From Eledone cirrhosa (taxonomy: Eukaryota): a DNA stretch of 64,000 bases. Each line of letters starts with the position of its first letter. Positions within the stretch are counted from its first letter, which is position 1. The stretch spans positions 87,048,001 through 87,112,000 of the forward strand of contig OZ024746.1 in assembly GCA_964016885.1 (NCBI GenBank), in the 5' to 3' direction. The notes under the pieces were generated by a model. It searched no databases. It saw only the letters and a list, made by a program, of their open reading frames with translations, and was not told the DNA's origin. Both the position numbers and the translations under genes were made by a program. Shown here one piece after another: positions 3,952 through 57,340 of the stretch.

Positions 3952-5574
3952 CCGGAGAGGAATCGATCTCTTTTCTGCTAATGTTCTGTTGAAAAATGAA
4001 GAAATTACGAAAATATCCCCTTGTGAAATATTCATATATATCCTCTTGTCTTACAGTCAAGCAGGTGCAAGTATTTTTGCTTTGATAATGTTATTTAAGG
4101 AATTAGATATTTCCTTTATTTTGACTTTTACAATAATCAAAATTTTCCCGAATCTCATTTTTTCCAGAATTAGGTTTTGCGTAACTTAATTTGTTTTTCC
4201 ATTCACCATATTTTTAGAGATCGTGAATACACATCTCCAAATATGCTATAATAAATCTAATTCTGGTGTGCTTTTACAATCCTCCTTTTGTTTTCGTTTT
4301 CAATTGAAATACTGTATATCCCGTCCTCGCGGGTTTAGCATTTAATGCTATTTTTCTGTTCCTTTGCATAAGATACACTATATATTCTTCCCTTACCATA
4401 ATGTTTTAAGCTCGCTCTAAAAATAACTTCAGAGGTTTCAAGATCATATTCTTTAGAAATTCTCTTGGTCCCTCTTTCAATTAACTTTCTCTAAATGTAA
4501 TCAAGAACTCATTAAAATTACTAAATACCTCATTTCTAGGTTTATCTGAAATATCTAGGTCGTGTAACGTTTATTTACTTTTTTATTTATTTTTTTTTTT
4601 TCTCTAAAATATTTGGACACACTCTTGTTCTTCAGTATTTGATATTTTTATACCTGCTACATATATAATTTGATTCTCACTACATTCCACTCACGTTTAG
4701 CATCGCTTATACAGCGCAGCGGTATTCCTTAAATTTAGTTTCTATCTCTCGTCGTAATTGTTAAGACTTGTTTTATGCAGTTAAAATATGAAGGGTCGAT
4801 GTCCGAGGTTAGCAAAAGAAAACAAAATAAAATTTCGTAATATTTCCCTCTGTCTACGTGCTAACTGAGTACTTAAACTAAAATTGAAGCTCTACTGAAA
4901 TTCACATGGCTCTGTGCCAGATTGACAGGCAAATTCTTGACGCTATTCATTTAGAATTATATGCTGTATTGAACTTGATGAATTTGATAAAGTACCGAGC
5001 GAGTTCTGACTCAAATAAATCGGCTTCACGCATTCACATAAATGCTGGCTTTACACCTAAATAATTACAGACTATAAGTTCCTAGTGAAGTAGAAAACTG
5101 GAGTTACATTCTAAACGCTGCGATACGCAGTGTTGTCTTAAGGAGTCCTGGCATGAATACGTTTGAGTACAGATTCTTTGTTTATTCATGACTGTTGATA
5201 GACTGCAAATAGTTAAGCTGTAACCTATCTACGGATATAATGGCTTTACATCAAATTGTTTCTGGGGCGCAATTTCAAACTTCATATCCATGAAATGTAA
5301 CTGTCGATATCGTTTCAAGCATGCATGTGATAAAGAATTATGAATTTTCCTTCTGCTCAATCCCCTTATTTAGATGCACCAAATATTTATGATCGTAAGA
5401 AAACTTCCACTTCCGGTAGGATTTGTCATGTTTAAACTTTTATCAGAATAATTGTTTTCATCCTCAGAACTGTCTTCAGATTAAATTGTATACTAGCAGC
5501 TGCTATACAGTTATTGGATAAGTGAAATATATGCGATCAATGTTTACATGCCAGGATAGGATATGAATTATAGG

Positions 5575-11307: not shown

Positions 11308-11342
<35 letters not shown>

Positions 11343-11375
11343 CGAAGGAAATGTGGTAAGGAACCAGGTGGTTCC

Positions 11376-15275: not shown

Positions 15276-15276
<1 letters not shown>

Positions 15277-15354
15277 CGAAGGAGTTGTGGTAAGGACTAG
15301 TCCAGAAATAGCCGTCGAAACGGCTTCAGCTCTGCCGTCGGGGTCATATATTTT

Positions 15355-15356
<2 letters not shown>
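15276..15356. mobile_element. Internally deleted copy of the short fold-back element (family P1)
   Basis: AACGAAGGAGTTGTGGTAAGG tail joined to ACTAGTCCAGAAATAGCCGTCGAAACGGC..GCCGTCGGGGTCATA, embedded in (TA)n. Confidence 0.75.
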
Positions 15357-18600: not shown

Positions 18601-22490
<3,890 letters not shown>

Positions 22491-27649: not shown

Positions 27650-28140
27650 TACTGCGGTATTATAGCAATGAGTTTGCTTCTATACAGATTGGACAATCTG
27701 TAACGCTAAAGAAAAGTATGACTGTATGAGAAGAATGCTTGGAAAGACACGGTATGAGGAGCACAACTGAAATATATGAGAGGACTTGGAATTCATTGGA
27801 TTGCTTCTTCATCTAAAAGATGGTTATATAAATTATCCTTGATTTTGTGTCTGGGACGGTCGAGCAAATGTAATCATCTTATACGAAAGACATGGCCAGA
27901 CAGAACGGACTTCAACATTGGAGAGAATGGCTTGTTAATCCAATGAAACTTGCTTCCCATTGCATATCAAACGTGGGCTGATGAAGCAATTTGTGAATGA
28001 TTTGGCCAATTATGGTGACTGTTTCAAATACTTAAGCTAAGAAATGTTTGACTTGTCTTGTGAGATAATTAAGACTGGTGTGTTTACCAGATGAATCATC
28101 TATTGCATGACGACTAATTTTTGGAGACGATGTCTCCAAA
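27650..28140 (+). pseudogene. Decayed DNA transposase fragment (probably CMC/Chapaev3-type)
   Basis: GYINYP*FCVWDGRA..WPDRT..LPLHIKRGLMKQFVNDL..GDCFKYL, matching the recalled family motif GYTKYPCFLCLWDSRA..LPPLHIKLGLMKQFVKAL. Contains stops and frameshifts. Confidence 0.7.
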
Positions 28141-28280
28141 AGGTAAAATTCAAATAGTGTGTGTGATTCCACTGCAAACATTACCCTCGAAACATATATT
28201 AATATCATTTAAAACTTATGATTTCACTTCAAAACAAATAAAAGATATATATATATCAGAATGGATTCAGTTTGAAATTG

Positions 28281-28405
28281 GTTAGACCATTACTCAACAG
28301 AGTACTCGATCCTTGGGGTAGTAGATTATGGCTACATTAAAAAGACTCGGGACCCCGACGGCTAACCTCTTACCGAGCTCAGCCGTCGTGGTTCTGAAGT
28401 TTTTA
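28281..28405 (-). mobile_element. Diverged relative of fold-back family P1
   Basis: CAGAGTACTCGATCCTTGGGGTAGTAGA resembles the P1 tail. Short inverted repeat GACCCCGACGGCT..AGCCGTCGTGGTTC. Confidence 0.55.
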
Positions 28406-28430
28406 CATATATATATATACACGCACACGC

Positions 28431-28528
<98 letters not shown>

Positions 28529-39721: not shown

Positions 39722-39917
39722 GGAAAAAGTATGATCCCGACGGCAGAGCTCAAGCCGTTTCGACGGCTATTTCTGGGCATAGTCCAGAAACAGCTGTCGA
39801 AACGGCTTGAGCTTTGCCGTCGGGGTCATACTTTTTTCGATTACCAACTCTACTACCTTAAGTATTGAGTATCCTGGTGCGTTATGGTCCATCTGGTTCC
39901 TTACCACAACTCCTTCG

Positions 39918-39918
<1 letters not shown>
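39722..39918 (+). mobile_element. Short fold-back element (family P1): about 55-bp palindromic head plus about 80-bp tail, in (TA)n
   Basis: AAAAAGTATGATCCCGACGGC..TTCTGG / CCAGAAA..GCCGTCGGGGTCATACTTTTT. The arm contains GAAAC-GGC..GCC-GTC. Tail GTATTGAGTATCC..ACCACAACTCCTTCG. A reverse copy lies at 57137-57340. Confidence 0.85.
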
Positions 39919-39971: not shown

Positions 39972-40006
39972 ATAGGATGGCTGTACCGCCGTGTCTCATG
40001 GATGGT

Positions 40007-40038
<32 letters not shown>

Positions 40039-40074
40039 CAATAGGATGGCTGTACCGCCGTGTCTCATGGATGG

Positions 40075-40113
<39 letters not shown>

Positions 40114-40149
40114 CAATAGGATGGCTGTACCGCCGTGTCTCATGGATGG

Positions 40150-40201
<52 letters not shown>

Positions 40202-40939
40202 CCATCCATGAGACACGGCGGTACAGCCATCCTATTTTCGATACTCGATCTTTCTAATATATTTAGCTCTGGACATAGCTATCCACCAGTTAATTTTATT
40301 GCTCATTTTTTGTCGATTCTATTGAGTGATGAATAGCTTTTGTTTTATTTTAACATATCTATTGAGCACTCTAATTCGATATGTGTATTTCCACATTCAC
40401 TCGAATTGTTTTCGCGGATATAGGGGTTATCTCCCTTGTCTAATGCCATGTGCGTTTTTCACTGGTAGTTAGCTCCTCTACCGCCAGGAAAAAAGCTCGC
40501 TGAGAAAGTAAAACTCCGTTCCGCTTGCTCTAGTAGGCTTTTATAATTATATGTGAGCTGATAGAGTACAGTCTAAGGATTTACAGAAACCCATGAAGCT
40601 AGATTTAACACCTGTCTAGTGGGTCCGGGTATGATTTTACATTCATTTAAATTATTGACGTATTGTTTTATTGATATTTTTTATCTGTTTGTCCCGAATC
40701 TTCCTTTATCGATTTTATATCGTATGGTTGATTGTAGACTTGTTCTATATGTGACGGTATTTTAACGATAGTTATAGCTCTGATTCATCTGAATTATTGA
40801 GCCCTCTGCCACTCATGTCGAATCTCGTTTATCGTGAACTCGTGCGCCGATTTTTCGATACTCGATCTTTCTAATATATATATATATATATATAAATATA
40901 ATATAATAGGATGGCTGTACCGCCGTGTCTCATGGATGG

Positions 40940-55766: not shown

Positions 55767-55822
<56 letters not shown>

Positions 55823-56165
55823 CCCTCGAAACGACTTGAGTTCTGCCGTCGGCGTCTTGAACATTTTCCTATATATATATATATTTTTATACTTTGGTGG
55901 GAGGGTCGTGTTGCCGATAATAACACACGCTTCTGTTGGTTTTCACTTTAATTTAGTATACATTTCCGTTAGTTGGTTGATAAACAGAAGGTTGTTTATA
56001 TATTGTCAAAACTCTTTTGTCACACATTCTGAGATAAAATGGTGTAGGTCAGAACAAAGGATGGACACACAAAATAAAAACCTACTCACTGTGGAGGTCA
56101 CGGAACATTTGATGAAAGAGCTTTGACAATTTACAAACAACCTTCCGGTTATCGAACCAATTATT

Positions 56166-56223
56166 ATACAATGAACATTTCAATAACCGGGTTCAGTATG
56201 AATCCGGTGACATCATCAGGTAT
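56166..56223 (-). ncRNA. Type I hammerhead, inverted partner copy
   Basis: The reverse complement reads ATAC-CTGATGA-TGTCACCGG..CCGGTTATT-GAAA-TGTTC-ATT-GTAT. Confidence 0.65.
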
Positions 56224-56391
56224 TCGAAATTTAACAAAGGAATATAATAGATACAATCCATGGGCTGAACAGGCAAAGAGACAAGACGGCGACCACACAC
56301 TAGAAACTGCTATATGTTTGGTCACCTTCTTGTCTGTCTGCCTATTCAGCCCCATGGGTTGTGTCTATTATATTCCTTTGTTATATTTCGG

Positions 56392-56449
56392 ATACCTGAT
56401 GATGTCACCGGATTTATACTGAACCCGGTCATTGAAATGTTCATTGTAT
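56392..56449 (+). ncRNA. Type I hammerhead with intact core
   Basis: ATAC-CTGATGA-TGtcACCGG..CCGGTCAtt-GAAA-T-GTTC-ATT-GTAT. Confidence 0.7.
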
Positions 56450-56492
56450 AATAAACGTTTAAGGAATTACACCAGTCCTGCCTCCTGTTATT

Positions 56493-57136: not shown

Positions 57137-57340
57137 AGAAGGAGTTGTGGTAAGAAACCAGATGGACCATAACGCACCAGAGTACTCAATACTTAGGGTA
57201 GTAGAGTGGGTAATAGGACATTGTATGACCCTGACGGCAGAGCTCAAGCCGTTTCGACGGCTATTTCTGGACTAAAAAGAATTTAGTCCAGAAATAGCCG
57301 TCGAAACGGCTTGAGCTCTGCCGTCCGGGTCATACATTTT
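57137..57340 (-). mobile_element. Short fold-back element (family P1), reverse copy
   Basis: Reverse complement of 39722-39918. Arms about 57222-57276 and 57282-57336, flanked by (TA)n and (TG)n. Confidence 0.85.

What the first reader, a model, noticed from the sequence alone, without database searches (positions are those of the whole stretch)
39722..39918. Family P1: about 200-bp fold-back elements made of two inverted hammerhead 3' halves, repeatedly found in (TA)n
Seen: full copies at 39722 and 57137 (opposite orientation), and partial or diverged copies at 11341, 15276, 28281 and 55821. Each arm has GAAAC-GGC(ttgagctyt)GCC-GTC-GGGGTCATA, the stem III plus cleavage triplet of an HHR, but no CTGANGA. 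The inversion centre falls at the same place in both full copies (GGACTAGTCC-like, the apparent stem II apex) with different junction bases. Inference: reverse transcription or repair folds back at the ribozyme's stem II hairpin, producing a stereotyped palindromic mini-insertion. Inverted upstream pLTR pieces are known in PLEs, but I do not recall a fixed, hairpin-centred and high-copy form being described.
Basis: partly seen in the sequence, partly recalled or inferred. Interest (0 to 1): 0.75.

Follow-up and report, generated by a model that had tools for sequence, protein, structure and literature searches.

The report
Run-off stubs of a Penelope retroelement
These 200-base mirror-image inserts, present in thousands of copies, are the shortest leftovers of a Penelope-type jumping gene of a known kind, and most of them stop at nearly the same spot inside its ribozyme motif, likely because copying runs off the start of the RNA there.

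Summary
The repeat is real: 15,951 exact arm matches in the genome. It is not a separate element. It is the shortest insertion class of a 3.1-kb, (TA)n-targeting, Hydra-type Penelope-like retroelement with RT and GIY-YIG motifs. The parent's hammerhead core reads UUGANAA (U3-A8 swap, already published for Schistosoma), so CTGANGA searches miss it. Each stub is two truncated 3' ends joined head to head, one with an 80-nt tail. This is the published PLE layout, and long copies share it. The centre is not a pre-existing hairpin, is not fixed (46 distinct junctions in 47 loci) and does not need fold-back. What remains unusual: 80 of 100 unselected arms stop 10-25 nt upstream of GAAAC, also without a mirror partner. 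The mode falls on an Initiator-like YAGTC, at the same position in a sister family, often with an extra G. My best reading is cDNA run-off at a capped RNA start (about even odds; no RNA data). Against it, most ORF-bearing copies pass that point. The scan noted similar stubs before, in a ray genome and elsewhere in this genome.

The parts
39722..39918 (+). Complete P1 stub: inverted tail-less arm, junction, direct arm and 80-nt tail, set in (TA)n
39722..39776 (-). Inverted arm: 3' end of the PLE ending at site A (TTCC|TA), truncated about 15 nt upstream of GAAAC
39780..39839 (+). Direct arm, truncated 19 nt upstream of GAAAC; the A at 39781 is position -18 of the Initiator-like YAGTC (predicted RNA start)
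   Evidence: start site inferred
39799..39825 (+). Hammerhead 3' half: GAAA, helix III, GUC triplet (39819-39821), 3' strand of helix I
   Evidence: constrained fold of parent copies
39840..39918 (+). Tail: first 80 nt of the parent's 5' UTR, ending at site B (CCTTCGT|TA)
   Evidence: the same sequence continues into the 5' UTR and ATG in ORF-bearing copies
57137..57340 (-). Second two-armed stub; arms reach -21 and -23, with a 5-nt spacer
15276..15356 (+). Short inverted piece of the tail end (site B) joined to a tail-less arm truncated at about -19
11342..11375 (-). Minimal stub: 30 nt of the site-B end followed by TTCC, read as 4 nt of the site-A end
   Evidence: the site-A reading is inferred
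55819..55869 (+). Single tail-less arm, diverged, in (TA)n
28256..28407 (-). Stub of sister family P2 (tail plus two shortened arms); its parent has a canonical CTGATGA core

Best explanation
P1 is the shortest insertion class of a (TA)n-targeting Hydra-type Penelope-like retroelement: two truncated 3' ends joined head to head, likely made when two cDNAs, primed from the two sides of a break in (TA)n at two fixed sites 80 nt apart, run off the predicted capped 5' end of the RNA about 18 nt upstream of the hammerhead's GAAA and are end-joined. Shown here: the parent element, its layout, the two fixed ends, the truncation cluster, and junctions that differ from locus to locus. Inferred from published PLE biochemistry: priming at two internal sites and extension from both strands (about 0.8). 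Inferred from sequence only: a transcription start at the YAGTC motif and run-off there (about 0.5). Longer copies would need a longer, tandem or circular template, or a jump to the RNA's 3' end. PLE origin alone: about 0.97.
For: Parent: a 27-mer just upstream of the arm has 953 exact matches; 24 of the first 30 such loci reach the ribozyme core, and 21 of these 24 read TTGANAA. Broken ORFs carry RWR, DKT, YRDD, CxCx5C, a GIY-YIG-like motif, CxxC and CxH. Unit: pLTR, tail, 5' UTR, ATG, ORF; period 3,101 bp. Same layout at all sizes: 13 inverted pairs 0.4-3.8 kb apart, picked by me from the 100 listed matches, 10 with the tail on one side only; 43 of 47 short pairs have exactly one tail. Ends in TA runs: 55 of 62 at site B and 58 of 68 at site A. 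Cluster: 80 of 100 unselected arms end 10-25 nt upstream of GAAAC and 11 reach 84 nt or more. The cluster is independent of a mirror arm: 63 of 67 with one, 10 of 11 with only a tail piece, 9 of 14 with no P1 partner. Made afresh: 46 distinct centres in 47 loci; both arms of the same subfamily in 42 of 44 typed pairs. Start-site signs: YAGTC has its A at -18 in both P1 and P2, and P1/P2 similarity falls off upstream of about -22. After a stop at -18 the next base is G 11 times and A twice, against 4 and 17 at neighbouring stops (Fisher p=0.0003). Literature: PAc RT starts at two internal sites bounding the tail, extends both strands, and gives shorter products on 5'-shortened RNA (PMC11167929). 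Untemplated G marks capped templates in L1 and SVA (PMC4859970).
Against: ORF-bearing copies mostly pass the predicted start: of 19 whose upstream repeat passes GAAAC, 4 end at -17 to -25 and 13 run to -129 or beyond; in an overlapping set 16 of 18 run to -54 or beyond. Among arms intact to -18, 43 of the first 100 continue as parent sequence (hand count). The G excess is partly confounded: the partner arm can supply 7 of 18 G in P1 and 10 of 20 in P2, T is as common or more common (29 and 19), and the Fisher test does not correct for this. About 40% of arms end short of -18, so trimming must be assumed. In D. virilis Penelope the start lies 46 nt upstream of an intron whose end maps to helix I, so upstream of the whole ribozyme (PMC2377424, PMC4209133). 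Another PLE family in this window keeps its full core on both arms. The Initiator consensus is recalled, not from a call.
Confidence: 0.5

Rival explanations
1. Same two-site priming, but the stop is set by RNA structure or by an RNA cut in the extended helix II (internal loop or distal hairpin), not by a transcription start.
For: In P1 the stops overlap the internal loop and the 3' strand of a predicted 7-bp distal hairpin. Long and tandem copies show that templates extend upstream. An earlier scan note reports stubs ending at a hammerhead edge in another genome (not tested by me).
Against: RT passes helices I and III and the 9-bp proximal helix II before stopping. P2 has a different predicted distal fold yet the same stop and the same YAGTC register. 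It does not explain the G excess, or why upstream repeats of ORF-bearing copies mostly pass the site.
Confidence: 0.25
2. One reading: a single cDNA or repair strand folds back at a helix II hairpin and copies itself to make the second arm.
For: The arms of one locus are nearly always the same subfamily (42 of 44; 1.55 against 3.56 mismatches, 0 of 5000 shuffles). Some junctions contain short copied pieces. Self-priming was proposed for PLE junction palindromes (PMC3846280).
Against: The centre hairpin is absent from the parent. Tail-piece-plus-arm and solo arms stop at the same place. The tail-less end (site A) also occurs in solo and multi-kb copies. P1 arms are sometimes joined at this point to other families.
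Confidence: 0.1
3. The palindromic stub is a self-propagating non-autonomous element copied from master stubs.
For: Stubs outnumber long copies (27-mer counts 15,951: 953: 41) and would contain the predicted start and both priming sites.
Against: Junctions are almost all unique (46 of 47). Stubs lack the 5' UTR beyond site B, including a 9-nt complement of the tail start; the analogous downstream region is needed for PAc activity.
Confidence: 0.08
4. Longer inverted insertions collapsed later by palindrome-driven central deletion.
For: Long inverted copies exist; instability of palindrome centres is general knowledge (recalled).
Against: Non-palindromic copies stop at the same position; deletion would not be tied to one element coordinate in two families.
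Confidence: 0.06
5. A MITE-like DNA transposon with TA target sites.
For: Fixed ends in TA, an inverted repeat and high copy number.
Against: The ends are asymmetric, the centre varies, and the arms continue into an RT plus GIY-YIG unit.
Confidence: 0.01

Closest known systems
Hydra-clade Penelope-like elements (Craig et al. 2021, PMC8557442; passages, Introduction and supplement searches seen), e.g. Hydra-1_Obim
   Same: C-terminal GIY-YIG, DKT, RW(K/R), CxCx5C linker, CxxC and CxH motifs, (TA)n targets, hammerhead near the 3' end, inverted 5'-truncated copy with a tail at one end.
   Different: Not Hydra-1_Obim: its listed ribozyme differs, and P1 motifs gave no matching hit in the supplement text (line breaks could hide a match). 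U3-A8 core, long helices II and III, 80-nt tail instead of 30-40, unit 3.1 kb, and a sharp truncation cluster not mentioned in the passages read.
PAc (Poseidon, Anolis) internal initiation (Frangieh et al. 2024, PMC11167929; parts 1-2 of 4 read, figures and supplements not seen)
   Same: Two RT start sites bound the tail; both strands are extended; product length follows the template's 5' end.
   Different: Different clade; the start sites lie in the ORF there and in the 5' UTR here. The parts read describe no genomic class of run-off stubs; Fig. S2 could bear on this.
PLE hammerheads (Cervera and de la Pena 2014, PMC4209133; parts 1-2 of 4 read)
   Same: Type I ribozyme in the pLTR, short helix I, U3-A8 variant (about 1,300 hits in Schistosoma), paired motifs on opposite strands 100-700 bp apart.
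   Different: Here helix III is 4-5 bp with a 9-nt loop, and most copies keep only the 3' half.
Adineta Penelope junction palindromes (Arkhipova et al. 2013, PMC3846280; passages)
   Same: Head-to-head inverted pLTRs, optional tail, palindromes at the inverted junction.
   Different: Explained there by self-priming on an antisense template; low copy number; no ribozyme-internal cluster in the passages read.
Retroviral minus-strand strong-stop DNA (recalled, not from a call)
   Same: Priming near the RNA 5' end and run-off at the cap.
   Different: Target-DNA primed and integrated as paired stubs; a strand transfer is not shown here.

Membership tests
EN+ Penelope-like elements | Single ORF with RT followed by GIY-YIG endonuclease | tested here: met
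   Motifs in broken ORFs of L165-L169. Library support is weak: Pfam GIY-YIG E=0.07, no RT hit; no PDB hit. No intact ORF was seen.
EN+ Penelope-like elements | Partial tandem forming a pLTR | tested here: met
   18 of 28 ORF-start copies carry a direct upstream 3' piece passing GAAAC; tandem period 3,101 bp.
EN+ Penelope-like elements | Inverted 5'-truncated copy and a tail at one end only | tested here: met
   43 of 47 short pairs; 10 of 13 selected long pairs.
EN+ Penelope-like elements | Hammerhead in the pLTR | tested here: met
   TTGANAA...GAAA...GTC in 21 of 24 parent copies; three helices form in a constrained fold. Cleavage not tested.
Hydra clade | DKT, RWK, CxCx5C linker, CxxC and CxH, no CCHH | tested here: met
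   HSDKTG, RLRWR (R for K), CNCPDRSTC, CNLC, CKH, compared with the text description.
Hydra clade | Insertion into (TA)n | tested here: met
   55 of 62 and 58 of 68 ends.
Hydra clade | Canonical hammerhead core | tested here: not met
   P1 has U3-A8. Sister P2 has CTGATGA in 15 of 32 readings from 30 older loci. A variant, not an exclusion.
Hydra clade | Placement in an RT phylogeny | not tested
Type I hammerhead ribozyme (the stub itself) | Complete catalytic core on one strand | tested here: not met
   Stubs lack positions 3-9 and the 5' strands of helices I and II; no Rfam hammerhead hit in the window.
MITE / DNA transposon | Terminal inverted repeats at both ends and a transposase-coding partner | tested here: not met
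   One end is an 80-nt unique tail, and the partner encodes RT plus GIY-YIG. A TSD cannot be read in (TA)n.
Run-off (strong-stop-like) cDNA | End coincides with the capped RNA 5' end | tested here: inconclusive
   Motif register and G excess support it; many copies pass the site; not mapped on RNA.

The most novel reading that the evidence does not exclude
The stubs are fossil strong-stop DNAs. The element is transcribed from an Initiator inside its own hammerhead, so the 5' copy of the ribozyme is incomplete and cannot cut. Reverse transcription starts near the RNA 5' end and must jump to the ribozyme-cut 3' end over a 41-nt terminal redundancy, as retroviruses do, to make long copies, tails and pLTRs. 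Thousands of failed jumps were sealed head to head.
Probability: 0.25. Interest if true: 0.75.

Novelty: new variant of a known kind. Interest (0 to 1): 0.42.

Why it matters
As an object it is ordinary PLE debris that repeat finders could mistake for a MITE or a miRNA-like hairpin. Its value is as a readout of mechanism. How PLEs regenerate pLTRs and what their hammerhead does is open (PMC2377424: 'no obvious mechanism'; PMC11167929: later steps not validated). A base-level stop in thousands of copies of two families gives one precise prediction, a capped RNA start 18 nt upstream of GAAA, which a single CAGE or RACE experiment can test.

Tried and rejected
CTGANGA parent of P1: 0 matches; 62 and 33 matches were unrelated neighbours, junction variants or chimeras with other families. 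Rfam found no hammerhead, only sub-threshold miRNA hits on repeats. Pfam and PDB gave no significant RT match. Unconstrained folds put the P1 core in an alternative pairing in several copies, so an active fold is not shown. Protein atlas gave no result. A splice-acceptor reading of the TTTAG/TCCAG stretch was dropped because junctions are imprecise and no common upstream exon appears. A downstream promoter element was checked by eye against recalled consensus and was inconclusive. RNA editing of stubs could not be tested because the sample required an exact arm. Values of 25 in the extension histograms are mostly chance similarity of the partner arm to the parent. Literature searches for a prior description of this truncation class found none; subscription journals, figures, Repbase and Dfam were not covered.

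Full report
Observation. The arm motif occurs 6 times in the window and never in 100 shuffles. The copy at 39722-39918 is a palindrome of about 115 bp plus an 80-bp unique tail; 57137-57340 is the same on the other strand. The window lies in a 3.0-Gb animal genome; it looks octopus-like from repeats that I recall, which is an inference. The 30 best genome hits all show arm, inverted arm and tail between TA runs, with junctions that differ from copy to copy (read by eye). A 27-nt arm word has 15,951 exact matches.

Finding the parent. Searches for CTGANGA upstream of the arm found no parent (0, 62 and 33 matches). The 28281 copy led to a sister family, P2, whose longer and older copies carry CTGATGA about 52 nt upstream of GAAAC. 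Two P1 copies with longer arms gave a 27-mer lying 12-38 nt upstream of GAAAC, which has 953 exact matches. Of the first 30 such loci, 24 reach the core region and 21 of these read TTGANAA with position 7 variable. This is the U3-A8 swap published for Schistosoma PLE hammerheads (PMC4209133). Helices I, II and III form when the core is held unpaired; unconstrained folds often differ. The centre sequence proposed as the helix II apex is not in the parent.

The parent is a PLE. Thirteen inverted pairs 0.4-3.8 kb apart, which I picked from the 100 listed matches, have the stub's layout at larger size; 10 have the tail on one side only. Their broken ORFs carry RWR, DKT, YRDD, CxCx5C, a GIY-YIG-like motif, CxxC and CxH, matching the text description of the Hydra clade (PMC8557442). 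Pfam support is weak and no tree was built. ORF-start copies show the order pLTR, tail, rest of the 5' UTR, ATG, so the tail is the start of the 5' UTR. A tandem gives a 3,101-bp unit. The family is not Hydra-1_Obim as far as motif searches of the supplement show.

The cluster. I fetched all of the first 100 exact arm matches on contig C1 (84 loci). Eighty end 10-25 nt upstream of GAAAC, with a mode at 17-19, and 11 reach 84 nt or more. This sample favours young copies and one contig. The stop does not depend on a mirror arm: 63 of 67 arms with an inverted arm, 10 of 11 with only an inverted tail piece and 9 of 14 with no P1 partner end in that range; 8 long arms were set aside. In 47 loci with two arms, 43 have exactly one tail, 42 of 44 typed pairs are the same subfamily, and 46 centres are distinct. 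So stubs are most likely built at each insertion, from one RNA or from RNAs of one subfamily. Some arms are joined at the same point to pieces of other families.

Mechanism. PAc protein starts reverse transcription at two internal sites that bound the tail, extends both DNA strands, and makes shorter products on 5'-shortened RNA (PMC11167929). The two fixed P1 ends fit this. For the stop, the modal position is the A of a YAGTC motif, at -18 in both P1 and P2, and similarity between the two families falls off just upstream. This resembles the Initiator consensus (recalled). Arms that stop at -18 are followed by G 11 times and A twice, against 4 and 17 at neighbouring stops. Untemplated G is taken as the mark of a capped template in L1 and SVA (PMC4859970). 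Penelope has an internal promoter in its upstream pLTR (PMC2377424). My best reading is therefore run-off at a capped 5' end, trimming, and end-joining of the two cDNAs.

Evidence against. By hand count of the first 100 of 7,313 P1 arms intact to -18, 43 continue as parent, and the base at -19 in the rest is G 18, A 2, C 8, T 29; the partner can supply 7 of the G. In the first 100 of 205 P2 arms about 22 continue; G is 20 (10 partner-compatible), A 5, T 19. The G signal is thus suggestive only. Among 30 of the 41 copies with 5' UTR beyond the tail, 19 pass GAAAC going upstream: 4 stop at -17 to -25, 2 at -31 and -43, and 13 at -129 or beyond. An overlapping set gave 16 of 18 beyond -54 (2 of 30 loci printed no row). 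Longer, tandem or circular templates, or an efficient jump, must therefore exist. In D. virilis the start lies upstream of the whole ribozyme. A stall or cut in helix II remains a serious rival.

Comparison and novelty. The inverted truncated copy, one-sided tail, (TA)n targeting, junction palindromes, opposite-strand hammerhead pairs and U3-A8 core are all in print (PMC8557442, PMC3846280, PMC4209133). I found no description of a dominant stub class ending inside helix II; figures, most supplements (notably PAc Fig. S2), Repbase and Dfam were not seen. Earlier scan notes describe similar stubs in a ray genome and two-armed PLE ends elsewhere in this genome; I reached the PLE reading before opening them. 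Verdict: a real feature and a new variant of a known kind. The object is ordinary; the sharp stop is a useful, testable clue to PLE replication. Interest 0.42.

Noticed in passing
window 56130-56490 and 57621: Inverted pair of another PLE-like family with a complete canonical hammerhead on both strands (cores at 56219 - and 56396 +); this family truncates upstream of its core, unlike P1.
   Followed up: no
window 39972-40290: A 36-nt unit repeated three times between TA runs, then once inverted and continuing into further sequence; probably the ends of another (TA)n-targeting element.
   Followed up: no
window 28140-28500 and L047 (G000:C3:80.57 Mb): The P2 stub and both its flanks are duplicated on another contig: a segmental duplication, not an independent insertion.
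   Followed up: partly
L032, L033, L036, L040, L043, L045: P1 arms joined at the truncation cluster to pieces of other repeat families, some hammerhead-like and themselves folded back; suggests joining of cDNAs from different RNAs at one break.
   Followed up: partly
L294:1360-1480 and other ORF-start copies: Nine bases at the start of the tail are complementary to a stretch about 20 nt past site B. The helix would enclose the tail and is absent from stubs. It was not recovered in the one fold run.
   Followed up: partly
L233, L234, L265: Three copies leave the reference parent at exactly -201 and share the upstream sequence: probably a subfamily variant of the 3' UTR.
   Followed up: no
L001-L030: One substitution in the G run after the cleavage triplet recurs in the terminal arm of 13 of 30 best hits (query-biased) and in the inner arm of 2; mutation hot spot or template polymorphism, unexplained.
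   Followed up: no
window 20001-22000: A stretch with GC fraction 0.002, probably pure (TA)n, at least 2 kb long.
   Followed up: no
window 4858-4956: Weak U6 snRNA match (29 bits, below the 44-bit cut-off, E=0.003); possible pseudogene fragment.
   Followed up: no
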